DNA of 64,000 nucleotides from Eledone cirrhosa. Lineage: Eukaryota. A model generated the notes under the pieces. The model saw nothing but the letters and a program-made list of their open reading frames with translations. It searched no databases and was not told the origin of the DNA. Shown one piece after another: positions 3,401-59,603 of this stretch (within the stretch, counting starts at the first letter, position 1; each line of letters starts with the position of its first letter). Location of the stretch: NCBI GenBank assembly GCA_964016885.1, contig OZ024740.1:52328001-52392000 (forward strand), given 5' to 3'. The position numbers and the translations under genes were made by a program.

Positions 3401-3809
3401 GGGATCTCTCGCGAAAGAACTGTCCCAGATTCCTGCGCGACGAGGAAACCGTTGCGCATGCACTGGTACAATGCCCTGGCATTGCCGATCTGCGGGGCTA
3501 TCTCGAACGACTGCTGTCACGGGTGGCGCCAATCCGGTTGACCACCGAGTCCATTGTGACGATCAAGCCGCCTCCCCGCGTCGAAAACGAAGGAGAGGCG
3601 GTCTTTCTGTGTGGTGGACGCGACTGAAAGGGATGAGGTCGGGTAACTTTCTCTCCGTCCAACAGCTGGTCCTCTTCTTCCGATATCACTTCGGAAGAAG
3701 GATCAGGGTGGAGAGAGAGGCCCTTGGCCCCAGCCAGTTTTATGAAAGGTGGGTGAAAGTGGCGAGAATGGCCCGTGTGAATGGGCCTTCTCTCTATATC
3801 AGTCTGTAG
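407..3809 (+). pseudogene. Tx1 ORF2 (APE endonuclease, reverse transcriptase, CCHC), frameshifted and with stops
   Basis: LNVHGL, GDWN, SYLDR and SDH (APE); KSPGFDGL, FRPITLLN, DQSKAFDRVDH, RQGCPLS, YADD (RT); CPRF..EETVAHALVQC; spread over several frames. Confidence 0.92.
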
Positions 3810-13846: not shown

Positions 13847-16800
13847 TTACGACATTGCTAATTCCAAAGCCTCTGGATAAACAATATTCTTGGTTTTGCC
13901 CTGTGGTGCCACAATGAAGAGACAATCAGGGTTCCCAACCCTTGTTGTGCCAACATAGAGTTGACCGTGTGAAAAGACAGGATCTGCCAGATTCAACCCA
14001 ACGACTTTCAATGATTGCCCTTGAGATTTATTAATGGTCATGGCAAAACTGAGTCTGATCGGAAATTGAAGTCTTTGAAATTCAAATGGCAAATCAGTTG
14101 GCTTCAGAGGTATTCTGGGAATAAAACAATTGTCACCAGAAAATCTTCCTAACAGGATTGCAACTTCTAAAACATTGGACATCATATTTTTGATGATGAG
14201 TTTTGTGCCATTACAAAGTTTTGGAGGATCCAGATTGCGAAGCAGCATAACCGATGCTCCAAGCTTCAGTATCAGGTTGTGTGGAGGAATTCCCGCTTGT
14301 TCAAAACTGTTTAAAAATTCAATTGGATAGTTTACAACCTGGTCTTGAGAAGTGATTGTGTCAATTGATTTGTAGCATATTTTCTCTCCCGGTAACATCT
14401 CCAGCAGCCTTCTGTTGATTTCTCTCCCAGCAACATTTTTAGGTGCTAAGATTGCTCATTCACAAACCCATTTCGGATCAAATTGCCAGGTCTGAATGCT
14501 TGGAAACAATCTAGCAATCAGTTCTTGTTCTGTGTCAATGATATGGCCAAATGACAACTGAATATGGTCATTGGAGTCTTTTTCAAGAAGTCCATTTCCC
14601 AATTTAAGTAGTTGGATGGCAAACTCACTGACACCTTCGTCACCAGTTAAGTACACTCGCATGTTGGTTGTAAAGCTCAGCAGCTGAAAGTGGGGCCAGA
14701 GATAGGATGTTTTCAGACAGGCATTGGCCTGATCAGCTCGAGTCCCTCGAAGAATTACAGGCAGAGTTTTCTGAAATCACCAGCAAGAACCATTGTCACT
14801 CCTCCCATTATGCAACTATTTTCTCTCAGATCCCTTATCGTCCGGTCCAAAGCTTCAATTGCTCCTTTATGGCTCATAGTAGCTTCATCTCAAATTATCA
14901 TCTTGCATGTTTGCAGAAGCTTGCCCTTGGGTGAGTTCTTCTTGATGTTGCAAAAAGATTGTTCATGCCGTGTAAGATCTATGGGCAGCTTAAACATGGA
15001 GTGTGCAGTTCTTCCGCCATCCAGAAGTGTTGCTGCAATGCCACTTGAAGCGACACCAAGGGCAATATGTTGCTTTTGGCGAACTTTTGCAAGCAGGAGG
15101 TTTATAAGGAATGTCTTGCCTGTGCCAGCAGGAGTATCGATGAAGAAAAGTCCTCCCCTGTCATTTTGAATGTTTTCGATGATGTTGTGGTAGGCGTATT
15201 TCTGGTCATCCATCAATCGAGGTTCATTTTCATCCCCAAACTTATGCAATGCTTGAATATCGTAGTTTGTCTCCTGAAAAATGTCTTGTGCTACCTCCAT
15301 TTCTCCATCTCGCTCTGGCATCTCGCAGTTAGCTAATGTGCTAGTCATTGCCTGAACTCGATGGGACAGATCACAGAGAGCTTGATTGTAAATCCTGGGG
15401 GTATATTCCATAAACATATTGCCATAATGTCTTCGGGCTAGGTGCAGATAGTCGTCCGACATAGTTTTTGTACTCCTGCCAGAGTAGATGAGCTTCATCA
15501 ATTCCACATGCTGTGAGCATAATAGCAAATAATTGTCTTATTTGACTGGCTACTTGAGTGATTGCTGCTTCTTCTAGGCACTTCTTCCAGTGTCCATTGT
15601 GATGCAGGAGTTCATGCTGTTTATATGCTTCTTGGTATGTTGCGCACTCCCTTCCTCTGAAGCACCTAAGATCCTCAAATGACGTTGGTCCTCGAACAGT
15701 ATGCAGAAGTAGCTGTAAATAAAAACAGTCTCTGTTGTTGGGATGGACATTGTAAACATGCCAAATAGCATCACTTGACTTGACTTCATGACCTTCCACT
15801 AAATGACCCTGCTTTCTTCGATTCCAGGTCTTGCAATTGGTCCAGGTGTAGTATGTTGGGACTTCAGCATATAGGAGGGATCGAGCAAATTCATCATTCT
15901 GGCAGAGTTTAAAGAAAGCAGTTAGTGTAGTGTCATGTGATACTTGTGCCAACTGATGAGCAGTGATCTCAGTGAAGTACATTCTCTGTCTATTTTCCAG
16001 ATGGACTGCGAGGTTGACCACTGTTGGGTGGCGTTGATGGATATCAAATCCAAAGATTCGCCAGATAGCTTCATTGCTGGAGATGTATCGACTTGTTTGA
16101 TACCGTTTGACCTCATCCAGCCCACCATCATTGAATTATTTGTCAGTAATAAAGGTAGCCATGTCACTGCTCTTGTTGATATATTTTGTGACATATAGGA
16201 TTGCCTTTACGGAGCGGCAATTCTCAACATTGATATGAGCTTTTAAAAGTTTACACAACAATTTGTTGTGTGGGACAACCCACTGATTGCTTATGGTCAG
16301 CTCCTCTCCTCGAACTGTTAGGCTTGCAGTATTGCCTCCATGTTCTGGACTACGCCTACGATAAAGGGGGTATCCATTATTGTCAGTCCGAGTTTCCCGA
16401 ATAAAAGCTCTAGGGTAATGTATGCTGCATTTTTGATCTTTCATACAGGGAAAGGCTGGATTGATGACTTCACATGGACCATGTAGAGTCCATGTGGAGT
16501 CATCAATCCAGCCTCTGTGTTTGGACTTGATGGTTTCAAAGAGCTCTGGATCACCACCTTTATCAAGCAACTCTGCTGAAATGATCTTATGAACATCATC
16601 TGGTCTTTTCTTCTTGCACCAGATTAGTGTGTGAGAGTGAGGAAAACCTCTCTTCTGCCACTCAATAGTGGTCATCCAAGCACTAAGCTCACAAAAGATT
16701 CTTCCTTCTTTTAGGAGCCAGATGAGTTTTTTTTTGCTTTTCATGTAAAACCCGAGCAATGAGGTCATGTCGATCCTTTGGTTTTTTTGATTTTGAAATA

Positions 16801-17730
16801 ATTCATTTAATATTTCTGACCAGTTGGAATTGCATGTAAATGTAATGAAGAGATCTGGCCAATCAAATTTTCTGATATAGGCCATTGCATCTTGCAACGT
16901 GGTCCTCCCGTGAAGCTTGATGGTAGTATGATTGGCTGGCCAATATTTCTTGGGTCAACATTAGAATTGATGGCATCTCTAAGGTGGATGTAGTTATCTT
17001 CCCTCAACTTAGTTTGATTCCTTCGCAGAAAACCGAATTTTCTGTTTCAATTTTGGCATACATGTCCACCATGAACTGGCTGGTTACTTCTTTGAATCGC
17101 AGAACTTGGTTGAAGTGATCACGTACCATGAAATGTTAAGCATAGAATTCTTTGCAGCTGATTGATCGGCCAGTTTCTTGTCCCGTTCCTGGGCTGATCT
17201 GCCGTAGCTGAAAATGATATCCATGTTAACCATTCCAAAAGATGAGCGGATATTGGATTGAATCATGAGCTTCACAAATTCGCTCCAAATATCCACTTCG
17301 TTTTTGCAAAACAATGTCACGCCGTTCATGCTGTTCATCAACAATTATGATTACAACTTCATCAGTGACAGGTGCATTGAATCTGCGTTCATGTTCTGAA
17401 GCTGGTCATTTGTCTGTCCTAATGATGATTTTACGATCTCTGGTGTTGTTCATATACTCCAGTGCATATTTAAATACACTGACGTACATGTGATGTTGGT
17501 GAAGCATTTCGTCCGATTTGCTGCTGTTCCTTAATTTGTTGTTCTCGTGTAGCAACAGTCCTTTGTTCCCTTTCATCCAAACGGTGTGCTCGTGCTAAAG
17601 CTGTTTGGGCTGCGTTAGCAGCTAGACGGGCATGCCGAACTTCTTCACTTTCTTCAGATCGCTGTGTTTTCTTTCTCTTGGCCTCTGAAGATGACATTCC
17701 ATATAATGATCTGGAACGTTTTCTAGGCAT
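13847..17730 (-). pseudogene. Helitron RepHel (HUH Rep plus Pif1-like SF1 helicase), frameshifted
   Basis: LPSSFTGGPR, PDLFITFTCN, EWQKRGFPHSH, YVTKY (Rep); GTGKTF, ASSGIAATLL..GRTAHS, QFPIRLSFAMTINKSQGQS, HGQLYV (helicase); probable start MPRKRS at 17730. Confidence 0.93.
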
Positions 17731-17963: not shown

Positions 17964-18251
17964 GAAAAAAAGATGAAATCGAAAATGCAACTGGAGTCTT
18001 ATTTTGAAAAATATATATATATTTATTTGGTTCCTTTACCGGTTTCGCAGTTCTTCTGCTTTTCAAAAGTAGAGTTGAGATGGAGGCTCTGTGGTTTTTC
18101 TCACATCATACATATGTGAGAAAAACCACAGATCCTCCATCTCAATTCTACTTTTGAAAAGCAGAAGAACTGCGAAACCGGTAAAGGAACCAAATAAATA
18201 TATATTTTTTTTAAATAAGACTCCAGTTGCATTTTCGATTTCATCTTTTTT

Positions 18252-20160: not shown

Positions 20161-20758
20161 TGATTACAAATGTCAATTTTTGGAGAAATATAGGGGACTG
20201 AAAATGTGAGAGAAAATTGATGAAATAACTTAGTGGTATATTATATGATCAAAGAGTACGATAGTCCAGATTGCCTCCAGAATACAACAAGTAAAAGTTC
20301 AGATTATACTTCAAAATGCCACGGTATAGAATATACGGAAAAGAAGCAGCTAGAAGTGGGGAAAGAATTCAATATCGTAATCAGTGGCGTGCTTTTAAAA
20401 TTTTGGACTAATATTTCCGTAGTTATTTCTTTATAGATGAAGGAAAAGTAAAAAAAGTATGTATAGCATTATCAAATTCAGTTTGATAATATTAAAGTAA
20501 CACGCACACACATACATTTGTACACCCCCCACACACACACACACATACACATACAGATACACACGCCTACATATATAATTGTGTTTGTATTTGTTTGCGT
20601 ATGTGTGTGCGTGTGTGTGTTAGTTTTTGCCAATGTGTCTGAGAAATATGACAACCGTAGATTAGACTCGACACACTTCTAATATACTGGTGTAGTGAGC
20701 ACTTTTAAATTCTGGTACCACAAAGTAAGGAGATGGATTATATATATATATTTATTTG

Positions 20759-20887
20759 TTATAAGAACAAATTAAAATTTGAGCAAAGAATCACTGCTTT
20801 CACCCTTAGCGGATCTTCTGAGGCTCAGAAGATCCGTTAAGGGTGAAAGCAGTGATTCTTTGCTTTAACCTTAATCTGTTCTTATAA
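20759..20887. mobile_element. Fold-back derived from the 3' terminus of the PLE at 24625-26302
   Basis: Arms match gcaaagaatc.ctgctttcaccctta.cggatcttctga at 24651-24690. Confidence 0.75.
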
Positions 20888-20904
20888 TATATATTTGCTC
20901 TACA

Positions 20905-20948: not shown

Positions 20949-21305
20949 GAAAAAAAGATGAAATCGAAAATGCAACTGGAGTCTTATTTTATAAAAAAAA
21001 AATATATTTATTTGCTTCCTTTACCGGTTTCGCAGTTCTTCTGCTTTTCAAAAGTAGAATTGAGATGGAGGATCTGTGGTTTTTCTCACATCTGATGTGA
21101 GAAAAACCACAGACCCGCCGTCTCAATTCTACTTTTGAAAAGCAGAAGAACTGCGAAACCGGTAAAGGAACCAAATAAATATATATATTTTTTTTAAAAT
21201 AAAACTCCAGTTGCATTTTCGATTTCATCTTTTTTTCTTTATACTTTCACTCTTGTAGGACACCTCGATTATTTTTCATTTTGTAAAACTATCCTCACTT
21301 TCTAA
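20948..21305. mobile_element. Fold-back family A, second copy, hammerheads at 21127-21170 (+) and 21016-21059 (-)
   Basis: Near-identical to 17964-18253; right arm has an extra tail also found alone at 41568-41610 (minus). Confidence 0.8.
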
Positions 21306-22637: not shown

Positions 22638-22790
22638 GTATTAGTAATGGCCCGCTGAAATAGCGATGTATACACGAATGCATGTATAGTATACTTGGCA
22701 ATATACTGTATGTTTAATTAAAAACATTTTGAAGACCATTCACTATCAGTTTTAAAGTAGTGTCTATGTCACTTACTTATTCTCGGCAAA

Positions 22791-27564: not shown

Positions 27565-27834
27565 AGTATGTATACGTACATACATATATGTATACAGACG
27601 TACAGTAGTATGTATATATATATATATATACATACATGCACACATATATAAATGTACGTATGGATTCACCGAATATTTATTATAATGCTCGGTGGGTTTG
27701 TAAACAAACATCCCGAATTAAGCCGTACAGTGTCTAGCAACCATCGTTGCTCATTTGTTCAACACTGACAAAGGAATGCTGTACTAGTTTCAAGCTTATT
27801 AGAGTGAGAAATGAAATTTCGTTTCATTTTTTCC

Positions 27835-27839
<5 letters not shown>
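27563..27839 (-). mobile_element. Retrozyme-like family E, truncated in the hammerhead loop with an inverted terminus (duplicate at 29982-30255)
   Basis: Matches 38209-38443, then inverted agagtgagaaatgaaatttcgtttcattttttccgttta. Confidence 0.8.
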
Positions 27840-27875
<36 letters not shown>

Positions 27876-27904
27876 TATACATACATATATATATACATAT
27901 ATAG

Positions 27905-27969
<65 letters not shown>

Positions 27970-28396
27970 CATATACATATATATATATACATATATATAT
28001 AATATACATATACATATATATATATACATATATATATAATATACATATACATATATATATATACATATATATATAATATACATATACATATATATATACA
28101 TATATATATATATACATATTGTTATACTTTGGGAGGGTCATGTTGCCAATAAGAAACACACGCAGCAGTTGCTTTCACTTCAATTTATTATATATTTATA
28201 AATTTATAAATTTACAAATCTACAAACTTATAAATTTCTGGTTGGTTGGTTGGTTCCACAACCAGATAGTTGTTTATATATATAGTCATAGTCCTTTCGT
28301 CACACACTCTGTGACCTCTTCAGTGACTGGGGATTCCTTTCTTCGTTTCTGTACCTTTTCTTTCTTCTATCCTACGCCATTTTGTTTCTCAGAAGA

Positions 28397-29045
28397 GAAA
28401 TTAAAAATTAGAATTGAAGCTCTGAAATAGCAATATAAATATGGATGTATATATAATGTATTTTGCAATACACTTTATGCTTAATTAAAAGCATTTTGAA
28501 GACCGTAAGCTATTGTTTTAAAGTAGTGACAAATTCACTCACTTTGATCTCAGCAAACAGGGGAGATAAGCCGACAAGACTTGTTTCGCTTTGGTTGAAG
28601 CTTATCAAGGCCAACTACCCCACCTGCTGAGATCATTGATGTTATATTCTTATAGAAATCTAGTAAATAATCAGGAGCTGATTATGCTGAGAGGTTGTTG
28701 CAAAATACATTATATATACATCCATATATATATTGCTATTTCAGAGCTCCAATTCTAATTTTTAATTTCTGCCTGACCAACAACCGCTCTGCATAATCAG
28801 CTCCTGATTATTTACTAGATTTCTATAAGAATATAACATCAATGATATCAGCAAACAGGTGGGGTAGTTGGCCTTGATAAGCTTCAACCAAAGCGAAACA
28901 AGTCTTGTCGGCTTATCTCTCCTGTTTGCTGAGATCAAAGTGAGTGAATTTGTCACTACTTTAAAACAATAGCTTACGGTCTTCAAAAGGCTTTTAATTA
29001 AGCATAAAGTGTATTGCAAAATACATTATATATACATCCTTATAT
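28397..29045. mobile_element. Retrozyme-like family F (316-nt unit), head-to-head inverted pair (duplicate at 30848-31496)
   Basis: caaaatacattatatatacatcc repeated at 28701 and 29017; left half is the reverse complement of the unit. Confidence 0.85.
28870..28913 (+). ncRNA. Type I hammerhead ribozyme, U3-A8 core (copies 28569-28612 -, 31020-31063 -, 31321-31364 +)
   Basis: ggcc UUGAUAA gcuu-caacca-aagc GAAA caag-u-cuug UC ggcu; stem I extended by tcagcaaacagg/cctgtttgctga. Confidence 0.82.
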
Positions 29046-29174
29046 TTAAATGTTTTACATATATATACATACATATATACATATATACATATATATATAT
29101 ACATATATATATATACATACATATATATACATATATATACATACATATATATACATATATATATACATATATAC

Positions 29175-29982: not shown

Positions 29983-30250
29983 AGTATGTATACGTACATA
30001 CATATATGTATACAGACGTACAGTAGTATGTATATATATATATATACATACATGCACACATATATAAATGTACGTATGGATTCACCGAATATTTATTATA
30101 ATGCTCGGTGGGTTTGTAAACAAACATCCCGAATTAAGCCGTACAGTGTCTAGGAACCATCGTTGCTCATTTGTTCAACACTGACAAAGGAATGCTGTAC
30201 TAGTTCCAAGCTTATTAGAGTGAGAAATGAAATTTCGTTTCATTTTTTCC

Positions 30251-30291
<41 letters not shown>

Positions 30292-30320
30292 TATACATAC
30301 ATATATATATACATATATAG

Positions 30321-30381
<61 letters not shown>

Positions 30382-31641
30382 CATATACATATATATATAT
30401 ACATATATATATAATATACATATACATATATATATATACATATATATATAATATACATATACATATATATATATACATATATATATAATATACATATACA
30501 TATATATATATACATATATATATAATATACATATACATATATATATACATATATATATATATATACATATTGTTATACTTTGGGAGGGTCATGTTGCCAA
30601 TAAGAAACACACGCAGCAGTTGCTTTCACTTCAATTTATTATATATTTATAAATTTATAAATTTACAAATCTACAAACTTATAAATTTCTGGTTGGTTGG
30701 TTGGTTCCACAACCAGATAGTTGTTTATATATATAGTCATAGTCCTTTCGTCACACACTCTGTGACCTCTTCAGTGACTGGGGATTCCTTTCTTCGTTTC
30801 TGTACCTTTTCTTTCTTCTGTCCTACGCCATTTTGTTTCTCAGAAGAGAAATTAAAAATTAGAATTGAAGCTCTGAAATAGCAATATAAATATGGATGTA
30901 TATATAATGTATTTTGCAATACACTTTATGCTTAATTAAAAGCATTTTGAAGACCGTAAGCTATTGTTTTAAAGTAGTGACAAATTCACTCACTTTGATC
31001 TCAGCAAACAGGGGAGATAAGCCGACAAGACTTGTTTCGCTTTGGTTGAAGCTTATCAAGGCCAACTACCCCACCTGCTGAGATCATTGATGTTATATTC
31101 TTATAGAAATCTAGTAAATAATCAGGAGCTGATTATGCAGAGCGGTTGTTGCAAAATACATTATATATACATCCATATATATATTGCTATTTCAGAGCTC
31201 CAATTCTAATTTTTAATTTCTGCCTGACCAACAACCGCTCTGCATAATCAGCTCCTGATTATTTACTAGATTTCTATAAGAATATAACATCAATGATATC
31301 AGCAAACAGGTGGGGTAGTTGGCCTTGATAAGCTTCAACCAAAGCGAAACAAGTCTTGTCGGCTTATCTCTCCTGTTTGCTGAGATCAAAGTGAGTGAAT
31401 TTGTCACTACCTTAAAACAATAGCTTACGGTCTTCAAAAGGCTTTTAATTAAGCATAAAGTGTATTGCAAAATACATTATATATACATCCTTATATTTAA
31501 ATGTTTTACATATATATACATACATATATACATATATACATATATATATACACATATATATATATACATATATATATATACATATATATACATACATATA
31601 TATACATATATATATATATACATATATATATACATATATAC

Positions 31642-32729: not shown

Positions 32730-32933
32730 ATTCCTTTCAACTAAACTGTATCCATTCAAATCTTTCTATTTTTCTCCGGATTACTTTTGGAACTACAACT
32801 GGAACCATCGAGCAAACTCTAGGTGAGCTGATAATCTACTGTGTGTAATATTTATATTACAACACAACGGAAAATACTGTATATTTACCTCCTGTAAAGT
32901 CGAGCAACCCACACATCAAACGCAACCACAACA

Positions 32934-35231
32934 ATGGAAAAACACTACCTGGATATGTCACTCAAAAACATACCAACCCAAGGTAGAAAGGAATATTTAT
33001 TGAGTATGATTCAAAAAACTAATGAATTCATTCGACGTGTCAGGTGGAAAACGCTCCACTATGATAGAAGCCGTATGAACTCAACATTAGAAAGTGGTGT
33101 AAACAACAAATTCGGTTTTAGGACTTGTAAAAACCCACCCACCAACCCACTATTAGATGCATTTGAGCAGGACCTTATGAACTTAATCCTTAAAATTAAA
33201 TTCAAAGGACGCAACACCAACAGCAAATTACAGAAAGATATAAAAAAACTACTGGACGACCTTAAAAACACCAAAGGAATTGTAGTAAAAGCGGACAAAA
33301 CATCAAACCTGTACACTATGGATTGCACTACATACAACAACTTCATTCGAAAAGAATTACATAAAAAATATAGAAAAACGAGTGAAGTAACCCTTAAGCA
33401 CATCAATGATGAGGCATGCGAAATAGTGAAAAATCTCGGAATCGAAGATAGCACAGGACCACTCTTACCGGCGGTACCCACCTTCAATCTTAAGGACCAC
33501 AAGGTAAACTTTGATAATGACCCTAAAATTAGATTAATCTGCCCCTCTAAATCAGATATAGGTAAAATAAGCAAATATATCTTAGATAGAATCATCCCCC
33601 AAATTAAGGCTAAGGTTAACATTAAACTCTGGGGGAAGACCCAAGAAGCAATAAGATGGTTTAATAGCATTAGCAATAAGAATAAATCTAAGTTTATCCA
33701 GTTTGATATCGATGAATATTACTCATCGATATCACCTGAAACTTTGAATAGAGCCATTAAGTTTGCTAAGGATAACTCTGACCTTACAAACGATGAAATT
33801 AAGATTATATTAGAAGCTAGGAAAACTATAGTCAAATTTGAGAACAGTTATTGGGTACGTAAAGATAGACCCTCTAACTTTGACATAACAATGGGCTCTA
33901 ACAATTCGGCGGAAATAACTGATATTGTGGGGTTATTTATCGCCTTTAGACTCCAGGAAAAATTCAGCAATCTCCACGGCGGAATATACCGCGACGATGT
34001 TCTCCTCCTAGCTAAAAACCTTAATAACCAAAAACTAGAAAAACTACGCAAAGATATAAGAAAACTACTACTCGAAATAGGACTAACTATAACATATGAA
34101 TACAACCTTAAAGTAGTTAACTTCCTGGATGTCACACTCAATTTAAACTCTGGTTTGATTAAACCGTTTCATAAATTGAATGAAAATCTCAAATACGTAA
34201 ATGTTGGGTCTAACCACCCCATCTCTATAATTAAATCTATCCCTAAAAATATTTCCCTTAGAATCTCGGGTCTATCTTCTAACATACAAGTATTTAAGGA
34301 ACACGCCGAGTACTATGATAACGCCCTTAGTAAAGCAGGCTACCTCAACAAAATAGAGTACATAGATGGGAACAATCAAAACACCCAAAATAAATCCCAC
34401 ATAGGTAGATATAATAACACAACACCAAACCACACTTACTACCATAGTATGCACACCAGTAAACCAACAAACAAAACTAATAGAAAGCGATGCAAAGAGT
34501 ACTTATGGTATAACCCCGAATACAATAGTTCCATTAGTACAAATTTACCAGTACTCTTCTTTAAAATAATTAAAAGACATTTTCCCACATCACACAAATA
34601 CCACAAAATCCTAAACCCTACCACTATAAGACTGTCATACTCTACAGCGTTAAACCTTGAACAACACATAAAAAAGATCAGTACTAGAAGGTTAAACGAA
34701 AACACTAAGAACTTAAGTACAAAGAACACAAAAAAAACAGTAGACAATACACTACAGAACATAAATAAACCACACCTAAGTTCGTCCGCAATACTACTCC
34801 AGAGAAAACCCAACGTACACAACTGCCCCCTCGGCAATAACTGCCTGGAAAAAAATATTATTTATAAGTGTACCATTAAATCCGGAGGCAACGAGTGGTA
34901 TTACGTGGGATCAACGGCAACATCGTTTAAATCTCGATTGTATAGGCATTCTTACTCAATAAAACACCAGAGCCAAAGAAATGTAACAACTTTAGCAGAA
35001 AAAGCTTGGACGCTCAGGGATAGCGATCAAAAGTTTACCCTAAAATGGGAGAAATTAGCTAAAACCCAAAGCTTTTCCAGGAGCCAAAATTTCTGCAAAT
35101 TGTGTAATCTTGAGATTTATTACATAATCACACACAAGAAGAAACTGCTGAATAACAGAATTGAACGAACATTATTCTGCCGTCACAGAACTAAAACCCT
35201 TTTTTCCCACTACAAGCCGAATATTACATAA
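32934..35231 (+). CDS. Penelope-like RT plus C-terminal GIY-YIG endonuclease, 765 aa, uninterrupted
   Basis: KADKT, KDHK, RLICPSKSDIG, FIQFDI..YYSSI, FDITMGS, IYRDD, VNFLDVTL; CPL..CL, IIY..YYVGST..R..H, CKLC..E, CRH. Confidence 0.95.
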   Translation: MEKHYLDMSLKNIPTQGRKEYLLSMIQKTNEFIRRVRWKTLHYDRSRMNSTLESGVNNKFGFRTCKNPPTNPLLDAFEQDLMNLILKIKFKGRNTNSKLQKDIKKLLDDLKNTKGIVVKADKTSNLYTMDCTTYNNFIRKELHKKYRKTSEVTLKHINDEACEIVKNLGIEDSTGPLLPAVPTFNLKDHKVNFDNDPKIRLICPSKSDIGKISKYILDRIIPQIKAKVNIKLWGKTQEAIRWFNSISNKNKSKFIQFDIDEYYSSISPETLNRAIKFAKDNSDLTNDEIKIILEARKTIVKFENSYWVRKDRPSNFDITMGSNNSAEITDIVGLFIAFRLQEKFSNLHGGIYRDDVLLLAKNLNNQKLEKLRKDIRKLLLEIGLTITYEYNLKVVNFLDVTLNLNSGLIKPFHKLNENLKYVNVGSNHPISIIKSIPKNISLRISGLSSNIQVFKEHAEYYDNALSKAGYLNKIEYIDGNNQNTQNKSHIGRYNNTTPNHTYYHSMHTSKPTNKTNRKRCKEYLWYNPEYNSSISTNLPVLFFKIIKRHFPTSHKYHKILNPTTIRLSYSTALNLEQHIKKISTRRLNENTKNLSTKNTKKTVDNTLQNINKPHLSSSAILLQRKPNVHNCPLGNNCLEKNIIYKCTIKSGGNEWYYVGSTATSFKSRLYRHSYSIKHQSQRNVTTLAEKAWTLRDSDQKFTLKWEKLAKTQSFSRSQNFCKLCNLEIYYIITHKKKLLNNRIERTLFCRHRTKTLFSHYKPNIT

Positions 35232-38211: not shown

Positions 38212-40309
38212 TATGTATACGTACATACATATATGTATACAGACGTACAGTAGTATGTATATATATATATATACATACATGCACATATATATAAATGTAC
38301 GTATGGATTCACCGAACATTTATTATAATGCTCGGTGGGTTTGTAAACAAACATCCCGAATTAAGCCGTACAGTGTCTAGCAACCATCGTTGCTCATTTG
38401 TTCAACACTGACAAAGAAACGCTGTACTAGTTTCAAGCTTATTATCTATCGTCAGGAACGTATACCTTCCTACCAGATGGTTGAACGTCTGAAAGTATAT
38501 ACTTTCCTTATGCATATTAACGGCTGAGCAGCCTAATTTGCATATCGAGTGAGTTAATCGACCGGGGTACTGAAAACGTTAAACGGAAAAAATGAAACGA
38601 AATTTTATTTCTCACTCTTAGTACGGCTGTTACTTAAATATAAGTATGTATACGTACATACATATATTTTACTCTTTTACTCTTTTGCCTGTTTCAGCCA
38701 TCCGGCTGAGGCCATGCTGGGGCACCGCCCTTGTTGCTACACATTTTATCTCCAGCCTGTATAGGTTGGCCACTGGTGTAAGAGGGAGTTTGTTGCTGCT
38801 GCCCTTAGGTTTCCCTCGTGTCTTGCTGTGGGCTCATCCGGGATCCTGGATAACAAGGTGTCGAGATGTTTCTTAAAGAAATCCACCTCCACGTCATGCA
38901 AGTCTCTCAGATGCCTCGACAGCCTGTTGAAGAGTTGAGGGCCCTTGAATCCCAGGCTATTGCAATACCTGCTCCTTATTCTAGATGTGGAAGACGGGAC
39001 CTTTGGCACCACACAGTGACGTCCTGTTCGACGGTTGGTCCAGCTCCCAATGCCAAAGTTTGGTGCTAGTCCCTCCAGGATTTTCCACATGTAGATCACT
39101 GCGTATCTCTCCCGTCTTCGCTCCAAGGAGTAGAGGTTCAGTTCCTTTAGCCTCTCCCAGTAGCTTGTCTCCCTCATCTTGGCAATCCTTTTGGTGTAGC
39201 TTCGCTGGATTGCCTCAATCAAGCTCCGTGGTTAGTTTGACACTATGGGGTGACCACAACTGGGAGCATTAGTCCAGGCGGCTTAGGACAAAAGTCCTCC
39301 ACAGTGTCAACATGGTGTCTCGATCTCTTGTCCGGAAAGTCCTCAAGATCCAGCCAGCGAGTCGTCTGCACATTGTCGCCCCTTTCATGATGTGTGAAGA
39401 AAAAGATGCATCATTGCTCATGTCTATGCCCAGGTCTCGTATCGATTTTCACACGGGGATATCGGTCCCTCCTGGTCCTGTGTAGCTGTGTTCCACTATA
39501 TTTGTGTTTGCAGGTTTGTATTGTAGGGCTTGGAATTTGCCAGCATTAAACTGCATGTTGTTTTCTTCTGCCCATCTGTATATGGCATCCAGATCCTGCT
39601 GTAAAAGGGCAGCGTCAGCCGGGTTTTTGATTGCCTGTGCTACCTTAGTGTCATCAGCATAGCTAGTGAGGGATGTTGTTGCATGCACCACAGAGGGCAT
39701 GTACGAGAGAGCCACCAAAAACAGTAGTGGTCCCAGGACTGTCCCCTGGGGCACCCCACTTGTTATCGGTGTTTCCCTCGAGAGGGCCCCATTTGCTGCG
39801 ACTGCCTGGCTTCTGTCCCTTAGGAAGCCATGCAGCCACTCACCTACTTTTCCAGTTATGCCGAGTCCGTGTAGTTTGTGACATATCATTCCGTGGTCGA
39901 CCTTGTCAAAGGCCTTTGCAAAGTCAAGATATATCACGTCCACATGTGAGCTGTCTAGTAGTTGTCTCAGTACCCAGTCGTAGTGATGTAGCAGCTGTGT
40001 AAGGCAGCTTCTTCCTGGGCGGAAGCCATGTTGCGTGCTAGTCAGGCGGTCATTTTCTTCGAGGAAAGTGATTAGTTTCTTTCTGACGACTCGCTCCATG
40101 ACCATACTGATATGCGACATCAGGGAGACTGGCCTATAGTTCTTGGCCTCCGCTCTACTACGTCCTTTATGGATAGGGCATATTGTGCCTTCTTTCAGCT
40201 ACCTGCGTAGTACACCACTAGCCAAGGAGCTTCTGAAGAGCATCGTCAGTGGAGTTGCTAAGGCCCGCTTACATATTTTAAGAGAACTGTGTATACAGAC
40301 GTACAGTAG

Positions 40310-40562: not shown

Positions 40563-41479
<917 letters not shown>

Positions 41480-41849: not shown

Positions 41850-43322
41850 CAATATTAAATAAATGGAAACTATATTTATAAAACCATATTTATTTCATTA
41901 TATATATTTCAGGGATATCATATTAACAATATGCTATGCCTTCCTCAGACAAAATACAATATAAACAGTTTTATAGATAAATAGATTCGACATACCGTAA
42001 CAACATCGACTTGTATTTGAAAAGGTTGATTTGGCAGTGAAAAAATTGTACACAGAGAGAAAGAAAGAGAGAAAAAAGAAAGAAAGACAGAAAACGAAGA
42101 AAAGGAAGAAAAAGAAGAAATGCATGGAACAAAATAGAGAGATGGAAAGATAGATAAAGAGAAGAACTTCATGTAAAGAAACAGAAAGAGTTATATATAT
42201 AGAGAGAGAGAGAGCAAATAGAGATAGATACATATATATAGAAAATTAGGTAGTGGGACGTCTGTTGAGTAAACGTATCAATGATACATTTATTTATTTA
42301 TTTATTTATTTAGCTCTAGTATTAATGTAAGGGAGATATATATAGAGAGAAAAAATATAGAGAGAGAAAAAATATAGAGAGAGAAAATTTAAAAATAACC
42401 AGATATAGGCGAGGCGTAAAATCCCTATGTTTTAATGTAGAGGTATTAGTATTTATAAAAACCAGCCACTATATTGTAAATATCAGTATTCCTGAATGAG
42501 ACAAGTATCCATAATGTGTGAAAATTAATGATCTTATGTTTAGTTTTTAAAAAAAAATTCATATGTTTATGTGATAGCTACAAACATCCATGTGAATCTA
42601 CATGATCAACTCTGCAAACCCTAAATTCACGGAAAACATTCTCAATGTGGTATAAAAATTTAAGTATACATATATGTGTATTACTATTCCTGTCTTTACT
42701 CTACAAGATTATCTATCAAGCAGAAATAGAGAGCAGATTTCAATATACTAATAAAAATAAAAACAGATTTCAATATACTAATAAAAATATATATCAGAAG
42801 CAAAACTAAAAAATAACAATAATAATAATAAGTAATAATAAAATAGAAAACTAAAAATATTATGAAAGAATATTACATATTAAAAATATTACATATTAAA
42901 AAATTTACATATTAAAAATATTAAAAATAAAAATATTAGAAAATACTACAATAATAAAAATAAAAATAAACCACAAAGATCAACCCTTCAAAATTAATTG
43001 ACAATATATTGCCAAGTTCATTATAAGCATCAGAGTCGAAAAACAGATAAAGCCAAAAATTATCTATCAAATCACATCTAGCAAAGATCATTTCAAAAAG
43101 TTTAGGATGCCCAATTTGGTCTACATGTGTTCTTATATTTAATATAGAAGTTTATCTAGTGTAACGTTTATTCGAAATATTTGGAGCATCAGCTTTTAGG
43201 GTAGCTTAATTTTTCATGAGGAATGTTTAAATAAAAATAAAATAAAAAGAAAAAGAATAAAAAGAAGGAATCAAAGATTTATCGGCTAGTTTCCCATATA
43301 ATTATAAATCAAACTAAATATA

Positions 43323-45410
43323 CTACATTTTAAATTTAAATTTATATTTAAACGTTGAGTTTAATCTATGTTTGCAACAACTGAATAAATTTGTCCGTAG
43401 ATTAAGGGAATTTTTAGATTTTAGTATAAAGAATATCTCCTCTGCGCAGAGGTCACATGTCTCAGAGGATGAATTAAAAGGAATCCCTCTTGAGACTATA
43501 TTCCAAGCCGTCGAATATCTAACGTTATCTAGCTTAAGTTGCCAGAGTACGCCTGATAGTGCCGTTGAAGATTTTTTGCTTGGATCTGTGAAAGAATTCT
43601 TGTGGTTATTATAGCGAAGTTTAAATTCCGTCGATGTGGAACCGACGTAGTTAAAAGAATTAGAGTCAGTATTAACATTACAATTGTATACTATATTTTT
43701 AACTAAGCAGTTGTTATTTAACGGAAATTTAGATCTATCTCTACAGTTACATTTGTTAACTTGTATATTATTTATGCTATTATCACTAGGTTTTAAGTTC
43801 CTATTATTTATTCTATTAATATTTTGTGCTAAATTTTTGGTGGATGAGTAGGTTAATTTTATTGTATGTCTATTGAAAATTGAGTGATACCTATGTGTTC
43901 TAGGGAAGCGATTATCAAGAGCTTTGAAAAATAGTTTAGCGATGTGGGTTTTAATGTTTAGTGAGAAGGGGGGGCAAACCAAATTATGTTCCTAGTTCTA
44001 TTTCTTTTTTGGCCTTTGGAATTATTGTAATGCTTTCTATTATAGTTGTTAAGGTTGTTGCCGTAATTAAAAAAGTTGTTACTTTGTTTAGTTTGTCTAT
44101 CATTATCTATGTACACAATCTTATCAGCATATCCTGCTCTAGCTAATGCTTCATTATAGTATTGGACTTTTTCGTCGAAAATCTTTCTATTCGACGAGAT
44201 CCTAGAGATACGTTTTTGAACAGAGTTTACTATAGTGTTTTTGACAGATCTGGGGTGGTTAGAGTTAAAGTTGACATAGTTTAAGTTTTCATTCAACTTG
44301 TGAAAAGGATAGTGAAGACATGTGTTGAGATTTAATGTTATATCTAGGAAATTGACTATTCTATGGTTGTTCTCAATTTCTATTTTAAGATTAAAGTAAT
44401 TAAAAAATTGTGTAATTTGTTTACATTTTCTATTTAGTTCAGAGTTATTATTATCAATAAGTAAAAGCATGTCATCTCTATATAAACCTCCGGTAGTACC
44501 AGGTATTTTCCTATGTAGCGAATTGATTAAAAATAAGCCCACAAGGTCAGTTACCTGAGCTGAGTCGGATGATCCCATAGTTATGTCAAAATTGCTATCT
44601 CTATCTGCTCTGGTCCATAGTTGGTCATTAAATTCTATCAAAGTTTTCCTAGCCGATAATATAATATGCATTTCATTGCTAGTTAGGTCAGTATGTTTGA
44701 ATGCGTAATTTAGTGCCTTATTTAGTAGATTAGGGGTAATAGAAGAATAATAGTTAGCTATATCAAGTTGAATAAACTTATTATTATTGTTATATTTAAT
44801 TTGCTTAAACCACTCAACAATCTCTCCAGTTCCCTTCCACAAGCTCAGGTTAGATAAACAATCCAAGTTCTTAATTTGCTGTATCACCCTGTCAAGAATG
44901 TTTTTGCTTAATTTGCCCAGGTCCGATTTTGATGGTGCGATCAATCTAACTGGCAGGTCATTTTCAAAATTCCTCTTGTGATCTTTCATATTGATCTTCG
45001 GTTTCCTGGGCACGAAAGGTTGTGTTCTGTTCTCAATTTCCAACTCGTACATTATACAAGATGCTTCGACATTCATTTTCTCAAGTTCGGCCTTATCTGC
45101 TACCTTGTACTTTTTCCTCAGCTCTTTCAGTATGAGGCCATTATACATGTCTTTCTGCACTCCATAGAGGTTGTTGGTCTTGTCAGATTTCACCAAGATC
45201 TTCTCAGTTTTCTCTAAGCTCTCAATGTTATCCTTAATGCCTTTCAGATATTCCTGGCCTTTGAAGTTTCTCTTGAATTTGAACCCTTGTATGATAGAAA
45301 TTATATCGTTTTCAAAGTCAGATAAAAGTTTGTTAGGGGGTGGATTTCTTTTAGATTTGAAAACTTTGTTTAAGTCCGAGACATTTTCGTTTGTATTAGA
45401 TTTATCTTTT
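43323..45410 (-). pseudogene. Penelope-like RT/GIY-YIG, N-terminally truncated, one frameshift in a G homopolymer (~43970)
   Basis: KSDKT, FIQLDI, FDITMGS, GLYRDD, VNFLDITL; CNC, IVY..YVGST..RYNNH, CDLC..E, CKH. Confidence 0.92.
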
Positions 45411-45563
45411 TCTTCTTTTTCTTCGTTTTCTGTCTTTCTTTCTTTTTTCTCTCTTTCTTTCTCTCTGTGTACAATTTTTTCACTGCCAAATCAACCTTTT
45501 CAAATACAAGTCGATGTTGTTACGGTATGTCGAATCTATTTATCTATAAAACTGTTTATATTG

Positions 45564-45629
45564 TATTTTGTCTGAGGAAGGCATAGCATATTGTTAATAT
45601 GATATCCCTGAAATATATATAATGAAATA
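45564..45629 (+). ncRNA. Hammerhead ribozyme in the pseudo-LTR (mirror copy 41891-41956, minus)
   Basis: tattttgt CUGAGGA agg..catatt/aatatg..cct GAAA tatata UA atgaaata. Confidence 0.78.
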
Positions 45630-48213: not shown

Positions 48214-51200
48214 TTCCATCAGTCAACGCGATCAGTCGCATATTTTGGCGTGGGAGACTATTTATTAAATTTAAGATGAATACTATCTCCGACAGTAATG
48301 CCACAACTACAGCCAGGTTGAATAACTGGTTATTCTTCTAACTATCCCTTCTGAAGACACCTTTTATTCGAATTCGTAGAGATATCCGACTAAATACATA
48401 ATTCATTTTACAAGGATTTGCTATAAACAGCATGGCTGAACACAACATCAACAAGAAAATTAAGGAAGTATCGAAGACAAATAACAAAGAAGGTAATCAA
48501 ACTTTATTCAGTTGTAGCTACAGAAGAAACCGAAATTATAAATCGCATTTCTCTTGGAGTTGCGAACATAATAATGATTTATTTAATTGTTATAAAATGG
48601 CAAAAAACAATCCCTCTATTGGCTATATGAATAGAATGAAGCTACACAGGGACGAAATGCACCCAGAGAAATTATTTCATATCGAAACAATTACGCCAAC
48701 AAGCGACGTTTGTTGAACGTAAAAATAAGATAAATATTATTAATTGTAAGTCCCCCACAACAAACATGGAATCAACAGCACGTGCTACAGATCGCCATGC
48801 TACTAGACTTCTTAGCAGCCAGGTCGAACAGCGTCTTGAAACAACTATGCCTGTAAGAAACTTGACACCACCTGTACCATCTAAGTCTATCTCGAATGCT
48901 GGGGAAACACTATCGATAATAATAATAATCGAAGAAATAATAATAATAATCGGAGAAATAATAATAATAATCGGAGAAATAATAATAATAATCGGATAAA
49001 TGTGACACTACGGATACCATCCGAGTCTACCTCGACTGTTGTGGAAAATACTATCGATAATGATAATCAAAAGTATAAACAATTGAAAATTTCCCTCAAC
49101 GAAATCTTCCAGAGAGAAATTAACTCATCTATAAATATCTCTCTGGCTGAACGTGTTAAAATGACAATGGTGAATAAAAAACCAAATAATGAAATACTAC
49201 GTGTTATTGACGAAATAGGGGATGAATATTTACGACGAATAAAAACCCCAACATTTTGGCAAATCAACGCCTGTTTATATGCCTTCAGCAATGACAGTGA
49301 AGCATTATCTTGGTGATAGCAGAGATATTAACAAGAACAAAACACCACCAAAAATACCATCATATATAACTAAAATAGAAAAAAAGAGTGCTGGCCTACG
49401 AAAAAACATAGGACATGTGACAATGCTCCTTACATGCAAACAAACACACAAAAAACCTCACTCCTCACCAACAAAGAGTGAAAAATAAAATAGAGACGAT
49501 GTTTGGTAACAGTAGCACCAGAACTCTTCAATATAAGCTGATCACCCTCAAACAAGAATTGAGAGCTGTTAGCGAAAAACGCCGATACCTGAAGAAGGTA
49601 GATGAGAGAAAAATGCTTAATAAAAGATTCAGACGAAACCAAACATCAGTCTATAGAGATATGAAGGGCAAAATAATAAGTGTCACTGAGGCCCCATCCC
49701 AGAAAGACATAGATTCTTTTGGAGAAAAATATGGCGTGAAAAGAAGAATTTCAACCAAGATGCAGTGTGGCTAAGAGAAATCCGAAAGAACTATTGCTCC
49801 TACACTACAACAAAAACATACGAAATAAGTGAGGGTACCCTTGAGACTGTGATAGGAACACTCCAAGATAAGAAAACACCAGGAAGAGACATGATTGTCG
49901 GCTACTGGTACAAAAAAACTAATATTCTATCGGAGGTATCTTACTGACCTCTACCAACAAGTTCTTAAAGGAGATACACTTATACCAGAATGGTTGACAT
50001 TAGCACAAACATTACTGGTCCCCAAGAACAAAGACATCCACTTGGCAAAAAACTACCGACCCATTGCATGCCAGAACCTGATGTATAAGATGTATAAGAT
50101 GTATACAGCCTGCCTCAACCTATTCCTCCAAGATCACTGTGAAAATAATAACATCATCACAGATGAACAAGCAGCTGGAAAGAAAAGGGTTTGGGGATGT
50201 GCTGAACAACTCCTAATCAACAAAATTGCGATGTCGGAGGTGCGACAACTTAGGAGGAATATGACTACAGTCTGGCTGGACTACAAGAAAGCTTTCGATT
50301 CTGTTCCCCACTCTTGGATGATAGAGGCCCTCCAACTTGCTAAAGTCCCAGACATTATTGTCAGAGCCATAGAGAGGCTGTCTTCTTCTTGGGCTACTAT
50401 CCTAAGGTTAAAGACAGAGAGGAAGGACTCTATTTTCACTGATAAAATAAAATATTGCAGGGGTATATTTCAGGGGGACAGTCTCTCTGTGATATTGTTC
50501 ATCTTGTCATTAAACCCCTTGTCCTTTCTGCTCAAGAAATGTGAGGGATACATCATTGGCTCACAGGAGGACAGAAATACGAACCTAACCCATAACTTCT
50601 TTGTGGACGATCTGAAACTCTATGCCAAGAACATGGATGGGATGAAGAAAAATCTTGACCTGGTTACAACGTTCTCAAAGGAATGGAGTTTGGCCAAGAT
50701 AAATGCTCATACATGACTGTAAAGCGGGGAAAAACAACAACCCAATCTAGCAACATTGTCATCAATGGTCTAACTGTTTCACCGATATCTGATGAGGACT
50801 GCTACAGATACCTGGGGATAGATGAGAACATATCCTATAATGGTATCTGTAATAAAGAACGCGTAACCAGGGAATACTACACCCGATTAAGAAAGATCTG
50901 GTCATCGGAACTCTCTGCGCAAAACAAAACAGTGGCTCACAATGTGTTTGCTGTGCCTGTCCTAACACCAACGTTTGGAATACTCAATTGGACGATAGAC
51001 GAAATCCGAGCAGTTGATGTTGGAACTCGAAAAATTCTGAACAACACCGGAAACTTCCACATCAACAGTGACATAGACCGCCTTTACTTGAAACGTAAGC
51101 AGGGAGGCAGAGGCCTAACATCAGTCCAGACAACATTTGAATTTCGCATCATATCTCTCCGACAATATCTACGAACCTCGAAGCGTAGGAGCCCGCTTCT

Positions 51201-52388
51201 CGAGCAAGTCTATCTGCATGAAACAGATAAGATCATGAGAGTTGGGAAGGAACTCCTTGAGAGATATTCCCTGTGTGATAATCAAAAACTCACACCCAGG
51301 GATGTCGCTCAGCAGTATCGCAGTGAATCCATGGATGAAAAACTGCATGCCTATCAGCAAAAAATCATGCATGGATATGTTGCCAGGAAGCTCCAGAGTG
51401 AGAGTAATATAGATAAGGAAAGTAGTCTATCTTGGACCAACAACCGCTATATTGGCTCCCACTTTGAAGGATACGCTTTTACAATCCAAGAACAGGAGAT
51501 TAGCACGAAATACCTGATTCACAAAAGAGATAGGGATGCAGGCAAAACACCTAGATGTGATAACAAGTGCAGACTCTGCAGAACTAACATCGAGGATATC
51601 ACCCATGTCATCAGCAGCTGCCCAAAGATGTCATCGCGGTACTATCTACCTATGAGGCATGATGTAGTGGCCAAAACACTGTACAATGTAGTTCGTAAAA
51701 AAGATAGCCCCGATAATAAACACATTAAAAGCTACAACAATGTGGAAGACATCCATGTACATAATATGAAAGAGTACTGGTGGAATGTTCCAGTAAAAAC
51801 CCGAATAAAATGCAGGCATAACAGACCAGATATTATGATATGGGACAGGGAGAAGAAAACATGCACAGTAGTGGAAATTAGCTGCCCAGCAGATGCCAAT
51901 ATAATATCAAAGATTAGTGAAAAGGAGAATATTTATGCAGAACTGATGAGAAATCTGCAGATACTCCACCCTGATTACACCTTCAGATTTATGCCTGTGA
52001 TTATTGGAGCATTGGGATATGTTATAACTGCCTCAATACAAATCTTGAGACGCTAGGCTTCACAGGAACAGAAAGAACACAACTAGTTAGGAAACTACAA
52101 GTACAATCCATTAATGGAACAGTAAAAATATGTAAAACATTCCAAAGATTTTGCATCTAATAACTGCATATACACATGTACATATACAAAGCATATACAC
52201 ATGCACACATACAACTCAAAACATACACATCCACACATACAATAACATCCATATCTACACATGCATGCATACATACATATCTACCTAGTTGATGTTGTGT
52301 AAATTCCAATGAGAGAGTCTTGTGTCTATGTTAGAAACCGACTCTCTCTCTATTGGTAAAACTTTGTGAAATTATAAAACCAGAAGAA
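48214..52388 (+). mobile_element. Near full-length R4/Dong-clade non-LTR retrotransposon in (CATA)n
   Basis: Single frameshifted ORF with RT and RLE; (CATA)n on both sides. Confidence 0.9.
48432..52160 (+). pseudogene. R4/Dong ORF (RT, CCHC, restriction-like endonuclease)
   Basis: NYRPIAC, DYKKAFDSVPH, GIFQGDSLS, FVDDLK, YRYLG, GGRGL; CRLC..EDITHVISSC, RHD, RPDI, VVEISCP, K..Y. Confidence 0.92.
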
Positions 52389-52404
52389 CATACATACATA
52401 CATA

Positions 52405-58711: not shown

Positions 58712-58743
<32 letters not shown>

Positions 58744-58746
58744 TAT

Positions 58747-59398
58747 AGTATTAGGATTGGTGCTCTGAAATAGCGATGTATACATGAATGTATGCATAAT
58801 ATATTTGGCAATATACCGTATGTTTAATTAAAAACATTTTGAAGTAGTGACTATGTCACTTACTTTTAATGTCTTACATTTTAAAGTAGTGACTATGTCA
58901 CTTACTTTTAATGTCTTACATTTTAAAGTAGTGACTATGTCACTTACTTCTTTTCGGCGAAAGAAGGCAGAGAAGCTAACAGTCTGTTTCATGCTGTTTG
59001 GCAATCATCAGAGCTACGTACTGCCCTCTTCCACCGAAAATTATAGAAACTGGATTCTTATAGAATTCCAGTAATAACCAGGAGCTGATTATACAGAGCG
59101 ATTGCCGGTCCAGCAAAAATTAAGTATTAGGATTGGTGCTCTGAAATAGCGATGTATACATGAATGTATAAGAATCCAGTTTCTATAATTTTCGGCGGAA
59201 GAGGGCAGTACGTAGCTCTGATGATTGCCAAACAGCATGAAACAGACTGTTAGCTTCTCTGCCTTCTTTCGCCGAAAAGAAGTAAGTGACATAGTCACTG
59301 CTTTAAAATGTAAGTGACATTAAAAGTAAGTGACATAGTCACTACTTTAAAATGATAGCGTAAGGTCTTCAAAATGTTTTTAATTAAACATACGGTAT
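58747..59398. mobile_element. Retrozyme-like family F (divergent subfamily), inverted pair, with an internal 42-bp tandem repeat
   Basis: Unit restarts at 59124; homologous blocks to 28397-29045. Confidence 0.85.
59189..59278 (+). ncRNA. Type I hammerhead ribozyme, C3-G8 core, long stem I (mirror copy 58951-59040, minus)
   Basis: ttttcggcggaagagggcag..agct CUGAUGA u-ugc..gca-u GAAA cag-a-cug UU agct..ctgccttctttcgccgaaaa. Confidence 0.85.
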
Positions 59399-59603
59399 AT
59401 ATATATAGATATATATAGAAACTAATACCTGCTCTGTAGAACAACTGATGTTATTACATTGAGCTATTTATCTTACTGGTAATAAGGTAGTAATAAATTA
59501 CTGTCTTTCACTGTTTAGGGTTTAAAATATATATAACTATAAAAAGTTTTAGTATATACATAACCATAAATAGTATCCTTAATACTATATATATTTATAT
59601 ATA

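What the first reader, a model, noticed from the sequence alone, without database searches (positions are those of the whole stretch)
28870..28913. Compensatory U3-A8 catalytic core, with the C3-G8 version in a sister subfamily in the same window
Seen: core UUGAUAA here versus CUGAUGA in the homologous element at 59214-59255. Stems I, II and III have almost entirely different sequences but preserved pairing (gcuu/aagc vs ugc/gca; caag-u-cuug vs cag-a-cug). Established: positions 3 and 8 pair in the active hammerhead and U3-A8 is a rare tolerated variant that CUGANGA-only searches miss. The double change argues for selection on activity.
Basis: partly seen in the sequence, partly recalled or inferred. 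Interest (0 to 1): 0.75.

Follow-up and report, generated by a model that had tools for sequence, protein, structure and literature searches.

The report
Retrozyme hammerhead with twice-swapped core pair
This is one of hundreds of near-identical copies of a 316-base non-coding repeat with a hammerhead RNA motif that is likely self-cutting; its unusual U3-A8 core pair is already known, but here it was swapped with the usual C3-G8 pair at least twice in one repeat family, which is likely spread by a Penelope-type jumping gene.

Summary
Observation confirmed: a type I hammerhead with core UUGAUAA at 28870-28913, and a homologous CUGAUGA element at 59214-59255 (monomers about 72% identical). Both are units of tandem non-LTR retrozymes of about 315 nt in a 3-Gb animal genome. 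Genome-wide motif counts: U3-A8 1656, C3-G8 959, single mutants 33 and 41, reversed control 0-1. With positions 3 and 8 masked, a tree of eight subfamilies needs two double swaps (one swap rejected, p-AU 1.5e-5); no single-mutant subfamily was found. This supports selection on source RNAs. However, U3-A8 is published for Penelope hammerheads, is not rare here (another family has 11,192 matches), and the 59214 element is a cousin, not the sister. Cleavage and expression are untested. More informative is the insertion anatomy: all 46 two-armed insertions face outward, and 38 of them pair a short end with a tailed end (never two alike), as does an autonomous Penelope-like element of this genome. 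In four loci both arms share unit-specific variants, two of which should kill the ribozyme, pointing to uncut multimer RNA templates rather than monomer circles. The scan noted the two-start pattern before in another genome. New member of a known kind.

The parts
28870..28913 (+). Type I hammerhead, U3-A8 core (28874-28880), predicted cut after C28909; retrozyme subfamily A
28842..28938 (+). Extended stem I hairpin capped by the hammerhead; the lowest-energy fold pairs core nucleotides 2.1-5 with the 5' strand of stem III (inactive form)
28698..29048 (+). Right arm of the insertion, 351 nt of the 316-nt monomer; 3' end at the short start site S (about 140 nt past the cut site), running into (TA)n
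   Evidence: L001
28396..28700 (-). Left arm, about 305 nt; 3' end at the tailed start site T (about 170-177 nt past the cut site)
   Evidence: L001
28569..28612 (-). Second U3-A8 hammerhead, in the left arm
28120..28395 (-). 3' end (pLTR) of a young autonomous Penelope-like element with its own minimal C3-G8 hammerhead (about 28284-28327), abutting the left arm
30847..31499 (.). 99.5% identical duplicate of the whole two-armed insertion (hammerhead cores to cut sites at 31024-31059 on - and 31325-31360 on +)
59214..59255 (+). Homologous hammerhead with C3-G8 core, U10.1.U11.1 mismatch and GUU site; subfamily B
58974..59015 (-). Inverted second copy of the subfamily B hammerhead
58739..59400 (.). 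Two-armed subfamily B insertion (314-nt monomer class)
22640..22790 (-). Truncated 3' piece of the same retrozyme lineage, without hammerhead

Best explanation
The motif is the hammerhead of a young non-autonomous 316-nt tandem repeat (non-LTR retrozyme); it likely self-cleaves weakly or as a dimer, and the repeat is likely copied into (TA)n tracts by the reverse transcriptase-endonuclease of a Penelope-like element. Shown from sequence: the tandem monomer, hundreds of about 99% identical copies, covariation of the 3-8 pair and the stems, at least two independent double swaps, and two-armed insertions whose outward 3' ends pair one short and one tailed end. Inferred: (1) the 3-8 pair must stay Watson-Crick in source RNAs, so either pair is tolerated but single mutants found no subfamily; (2) the monomer folds mostly into a rod that hides the core, and the palindromic stem III favours a double hammerhead; (3) a dimeric Penelope-like protein primes on both DNA ends and starts reverse transcription at two internal sites about 26-33 nt apart; (4) at least some templates are uncut multimers, not monomer circles.
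For: 316-nt period and copy set. Motif counts 1656/959/33/41 against controls of 0-1. Pair counts on 13 copies: 92% of cells paired, 12 of 25 pairs changed on both sides, 0 of 500 shuffles as high (related rows inflate this). Tree with 3 and 8 masked: 2 changes, U3-A8 as one clade rejected at p-AU 1.5e-5. Compensatory A-U to U-A in stem III at 5 family A loci; 19 locus-wide variant positions, 0 in the core. Hammerhead fold lies 2.6-11.8 kcal/mol above the minimum (6.6 for this copy), and the double hammerhead 6.5-12.7 below two single ones (crude). 100 of 110 arm ends lie at two sites; 46 of 46 two-armed loci face outward; 38 of 46 are S+T, 0 S+S, 0 T+T. The same holds in 6 of 6 subfamily C pairs and 16 of 28 clade II pairs, and in 8 of 9 two-armed insertions of an autonomous Penelope-like element. 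Two internal start sites, a 30-40 nt tail and a predicted protein dimer are reported for an anole Penelope element (PMC11167929). End-register shared variants at L061, L066, L079, L088.
Against: No cleavage assay. In vitro, hammerhead-dead mutants of an anole Penelope element still inserted normally (PMC11167929), so cleavage need not be what selection acts on. Only 19 locus-wide variant positions against 11 core positions of 316: zero core hits is not significant alone. Clade II carries A.A or U.U at 10.1-11.1 and some GUU sites, so those ribozymes may be poor. No sequence homology was found between the monomer and the Penelope-like elements of the window. The candidate partner's tail is about 57 nt against 26-33 nt here, so the partner is unidentified. 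12 of 28 clade II pairs have eroded or odd ends, a few readable as T+T. One locus (L138) carries C3-A8 in both arms, so a single mutant may have been mobilised once.
Confidence: 0.75

Rival explanations
1. Classical circular-RNA route: the hammerhead cuts efficiently, monomers are circularised and rolling reverse transcription of a monomer circle writes the tandem arrays.
For: Almost all arms run across the cut site without a scar, and haplotype variants are shared by all units of a locus. Linear and circular monomers are shown for coral, mussel and axolotl retrozymes (PMC7229834). It gives a direct reason for selection on cleavage.
Against: A monomer circle cannot give unit-specific variants in the same register in both arms (4 loci). 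In L061 one variant occurs in two adjacent units but not the third. Dimer or trimer circles remain possible, and this rival may hold for the majority of loci, which are uninformative.
Confidence: 0.35
2. The S+T pattern and the shared variants arise from one priming event followed by fold-back copying of the new DNA, or from later gene conversion between the arms.
For: Fold-back would copy errors into the second arm. The S end lies in a TA-rich tract that could anneal to (TA)n. Palindromes often lose their centres.
Against: Neither arm is regularly nested in the other: S reaches further in 24 and T in 13 of 37 loci. S ends fall at the same aligned position in subfamilies B and C, whose tract is less TA-pure. 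In L061 and L066 the register follows the ends, not the palindrome centre.
Confidence: 0.15
3. The hammerhead is an inactive relic or a purely structural or protein-binding element, and the covariation reflects folding rather than catalysis.
For: The lowest-energy fold hides the core in all 10 copies tested, and position 3 can also pair with 15.4 in that fold. Arrays with presumably dead cores were copied (L061, L079).
Against: The 3-8 pair forms only in the active tertiary fold (established), and it is the pair that covaries in 13 of 13 aligned copies. The 3-15.4 pair is broken in a propagated family A haplotype (L080).
Confidence: 0.12

Closest known systems
Animal non-LTR retrozymes (Cervera and de la Pena 2020, PMC7229834; passages seen)
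   Same: Tandem monomers of 150-450 bp, low GC, one type I hammerhead per unit, no ORF, co-existence with Penelope-like elements; axolotl forms need dimers.
   Different: U3-A8 core; most insertions are two-armed and outward-facing in (TA)n with paired S/T ends; linear or circular RNA not shown here.
U3-A8 hammerheads (Perreault 2011, PMC3088659; Cervera and de la Pena 2014, PMC4209133; passages seen)
   Same: Same core covariation; about 1,300 U3-A8 hits were reported with Schistosoma Penelope-like elements; U10.1.U11.1 was also reported as a natural variant.
   Different: Here the swap is placed on a subfamily tree (at least twice), in a canonical-size hammerhead of a tandem retrozyme and not in a minimal pLTR motif.
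Endonuclease-bearing Penelope-like elements (Craig 2021, PMC8557442, passages; Frangieh 2024, PMC11167929, passages and second part of main text)
   Same: Inverted 5'-truncated arm, tail often at one end only, (TA)n targets, internal reverse transcription starts at two sites.
   Different: [quoted passage not shown]
Li, Clavereau and Pollet 2026 preprint (10.64898/2026.07.22.740005; first part and passages seen)
   Same: Retrozymes as non-autonomous derivatives of Penelope-like elements.
   Different: It argues from co-occurrence and pLTR phylogeny; a text search found no 'tail' and no use of inverted insertion anatomy.

Membership tests
Type I hammerhead ribozyme | Core N3-U4-G5-A6-N7-N8-A9, G12-A13-A14, A15.1-U16.1, H17, with 3-8 complementary | tested here: met
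   UUGAUAA, GAAA, GUC; U3-A8
Type I hammerhead ribozyme | Three helices with covariation, stem I open | tested here: met
   Rfam HH9 24.5 bits, below the gathering score of 52
Type I hammerhead ribozyme | Site-specific self-cleavage | not testable with these tools
   needs a bench assay
Type I hammerhead ribozyme | Loop 1-loop 2 tertiary contact | not tested
   An internal loop in stem I and a conserved CAANCA loop 2 are present; the contact was not modelled
Non-LTR retrozyme | Tandem 150-450 nt monomer, one type I hammerhead per unit, low GC, no ORF | tested here: met
   316-nt period; 314 and 320 nt in subfamilies B and C; no ORF search was run on the monomer itself
Non-LTR retrozyme | Dispersed high copy number | tested here: met
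   614 exact-context matches; copies on many contigs
Non-LTR retrozyme | Expression as linear and circular monomer RNA | not testable with these tools
   no raw RNA reads were available
Penelope-like element-mobilised repeat | Inverted arm, tail at one end, AT-rich target, internal 3' ends | tested here: met
Penelope-like element-mobilised repeat | Homology to the pLTR of an autonomous partner | tested here: inconclusive
   none found against the window only; no genome-wide test
Autonomous Penelope-like element | RT plus GIY-YIG ORF between pLTRs | tested here: not met
   arrays are monomer next to monomer

The most novel reading that the evidence does not exclude
A dimeric Penelope protein loads one uncut multimeric retrozyme RNA and starts two cDNAs at fixed sites about 30 nt apart, one on each target end. 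The ribozyme is tuned to be slow: every subfamily seen has U3-A8, a weak 10.1-11.1 pair, a GUU site or a core-hiding fold, so that uncut templates survive. The core pair has flipped repeatedly between two tolerated states. Animal retrozymes would then spread from linear multimers, with circles as a by-product.
Probability: 0.3. Interest if true: 0.7.

Novelty: new member of a known kind. Interest (0 to 1): 0.45.

Why it matters
The U3-A8 pair itself is known. The value lies in a natural series: eight related subfamilies with at least two independent swaps of the catalytic 3-8 pair give ready-made constructs to measure what each pair costs. The young copies also make two open questions countable: whether animal retrozymes move through circles or multimers, and how Penelope-like elements make their tail and inverted arm. 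Practically, searches for CUGANGA alone would miss more than 12,000 hammerhead motifs in this genome.

Tried and rejected
Whole-window Rfam scan: swamped by TA-repeat microRNA matches. Search for RNA runs: no RNA holder listed. Four runs of unknown kind were laid as contigs; they cover 26-28 of 28 bins and cannot show ends or expression. My first trees without subfamily H could not reject a single swap (p-AU 0.41); H was found later because its 5-nt loop escaped the first pattern, so the counts cover only the 6-nt-loop class. One alignment had two wrong coordinates and was redone; one folding script crashed. My early recalled label 'Naiad' for the window's ORFs was dropped: Naiads have an N-terminal endonuclease; Pfam gave no family for those ORFs. 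The two direct junctions between retrozyme and Penelope-like ends (window 28395/28396; L013) were considered as template jumps but may be separate insertions into one TA tract; they are not used as proof. Three rows of shared variants (L003, L068, L072) were dropped as alignment-edge effects, and arrays L094 and L097 were left out of the haplotype count as later DNA-level amplifications. Three papers on 3-8 exchange kinetics and dimeric minimal hammerheads were not held, so no rate for U3-A8 is quoted; supplements were not read and may list U3-A8 retrozymes.

Full report
Observation. At 28870-28913 (+) a type I hammerhead has stem I GGCC/GGCU, core UUGAUAA, stem II GCUU/AAGC, GAAA, stem III CAAG-U-CUUG and a GUC site. 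The element at 59214-59255 has CUGAUGA, a U.U mismatch at 10.1-11.1 and a GUU site. Both match Rfam Hammerhead_HH9 weakly on short stretches. Each has an inverted twin, and the first insertion is duplicated 2451 bases on. The hairpins that carry the motifs fold at z = -7.1 and -6.4; the 42-44 nt motifs alone do not beat shuffles.

What it is. The window lies in a 3.0-Gb genome that I take for an animal from its repeats. The element is a 316-nt tandem monomer (family A) with copies about 99% identical on many contigs; an exact 28-base context with positions 3 and 8 free gives 614 matches. The 59214 element (B) has a 314-nt monomer; one A and one B monomer are 72% identical, A and C 82%. Size, tandem layout and one hammerhead per unit fit the non-LTR retrozymes of Cervera and de la Pena (PMC7229834, passages).

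The 3-8 pair across the genome. For the pattern core-N4-CAANCA-N4-GAAACA the counts are U3-A8 1656, C3-G8 959, U3-G8 33 and C3-A8 41, with 0-1 for each reversed control. By their stem II, 24 of the 33 and 32 of the 41 singles come from the older C3-G8 subfamilies (about 2.5% and 3.3%, the size of neutral decay). Chance double hits there would be about 0.8 copies, so the U3-A8 group G inside that clade is a real subfamily (6 of the first 100 clade II rows are U3-A8). In family A, 610 of 614 are U3-A8, 3 are G3-A8 at two loci and 1 is U3-G8, against about 1.0% difference per site elsewhere. That is low but not a significant depletion, because the pattern selects young copies. On 13 copies from seven subfamilies the pair is U-A 7 times and C-G 6 times, all four stem II pairs change on both sides, and 92% of cells pair (relatedness inflates the shuffle test).

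How often it swapped. Trees were built with positions 3 and 8 masked. Without subfamily H, one swap could not be rejected. A loose scan then found H, a C3-G8 subfamily with a 5-nt loop and C-like stems (98 matches). With H (63 rows, at most 9 per subfamily, rows with foreign flanks left out), H sits between A/C/C2 (U3-A8, 99/98) and the clade of E, F, B (C3-G8) plus G (U3-A8, 100/98). Two changes are needed and a single U3-A8 clade is rejected (p-AU 1.5e-5). The tree is unrooted, so the direction is open; a very short recombination patch cannot be excluded. Within family A, variants shared by all units of a locus fall on 19 positions, none in the 11 core positions; they include a compensatory A-U to U-A change in stem III (5 loci) and G-U-compatible changes in the long stem I. 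Private variants hit the core 8 times of 369 (12.8 expected), so inserted copies decay roughly neutrally. Selection is therefore inferred on the source RNAs, not on each copy.

Fold. In all 10 copies tested the minimum-energy fold is not the hammerhead, mostly because core nucleotides pair with the 5' strand of stem III; the active fold is 2.6-11.8 kcal/mol higher (6.6 here). A double hammerhead through the palindromic stem III gains 6.5-12.7 kcal/mol over two single ones (crude model with a linker). This resembles the dimer requirement described for animal hammerheads (PMC4209133, passages).

How it moves. In 64 non-redundant family A loci (24 top BLAST hits, 40 chosen from the pattern lists), 100 of 110 arm 3' ends lie about 140 nt (S) or 162-177 nt (T) past the cut site and not at it. 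All 46 two-armed loci face outward, nearly always into (TA)n; 38 are S+T, none S+S or T+T, and 8 have an end elsewhere. The rule recurs in 6 of 6 C pairs and 16 of 28 clade II pairs, and in 8 of 9 two-armed insertions of a young autonomous Penelope-like element whose end abuts this insertion. Neither arm is regularly the longer (24 against 13), which argues against simple fold-back. A tail often present at one end only is known for these elements (PMC8557442, passages); two internal start sites, a predicted protein dimer, and insertion without hammerhead cleavage were reported in vitro (PMC11167929). In four loci both arms share unit-specific variants in the same register from the 3' end; two of these changes should kill the ribozyme (G3 in L079; A15.1 to U in L061). 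A monomer circle cannot explain this; an uncut multimer, linear or circular, can. The partner is not identified: no homology to the window's Penelope-like elements was found and the candidate's tail is longer.

Known and new. U3-A8 was reported in nature by Perreault 2011 (PMC3088659, passages) and with Schistosoma Penelope-like elements, about 1,300 hits (PMC4209133). A 2026 preprint derives retrozymes from Penelope-like elements by phylogeny. My six answered paper searches listed no paper whose title or abstract start describes repeated 3-8 swaps within one retrozyme lineage or a strict S+T rule; subscription papers and supplements were not seen. The scan's own notes hold a similar U3-A8 retrozyme with two start points in another genome; I had reached that reading before seeing it, and it is not independent support.

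Verdict. New member of a known kind; interest 0.45, mostly for the testable series of subfamilies and the insertion anatomy.

Noticed in passing
window 18037-18183 and 21022-21164 (both strands): A second, unrelated U3-A8 hammerhead family (minimal type, palindromic CCGG stem III) in two-armed insertions; 11,192 genome matches, 99 of the first 100 with U3-A8.
   Followed up: partly
window 32898-35231 (+) and 43326-45490 (-): Penelope-like ORFs (777 aa stop-to-stop; 510+222 aa) with RT-like and C-terminal GIY-YIG-like motifs read by eye; no Pfam hit. A C3-G8 hammerhead-like motif lies upstream of the second (45572-45621) and at 41899-41948. Clade not established.
   Followed up: partly
window 28120-28395; L155-L169: Young (99%) autonomous Penelope-like family with RT and GIY-YIG (Pfam E 1.8e-4), a CxxC linker and a tail of about 57 nt at one end only in 8 of 9 two-armed insertions.
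   Followed up: partly
window about 27650-29050 vs 30070-31500: Near-identical tandem duplication with an offset of about 2.4 kb (99.5%); recent DNA duplication or assembly artefact.
   Followed up: no
L097, L094: Long family A arrays with higher-order repeats (a block of several units repeated with the same private variants in L097), i.e. satellite-like amplification after insertion.
   Followed up: partly
L108, L109, L141-L149: An older hammerhead family with stem II GGAG/CUCC, U3-A8 in 7 of 9 exact matches and without detectable flank homology to family A.
   Followed up: partly
window 27651-27837, 30067, 38294, 40375, 57123, 59748: Another dispersed repeat of about 190 nt, six copies in the window, always next to (TA)n; no hammerhead seen.
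   Followed up: no
window 13847-16954 (-); 936-3809 (+); 38746-40198 (-); 49895-53178 (+): Decayed Helitron and several LINE-type reverse transcriptase fragments.
   Followed up: no
window 40573-40901 and 20753-20893: Further long palindromes in TA tracts, probably two-armed remnants of the same kind.
   Followed up: no
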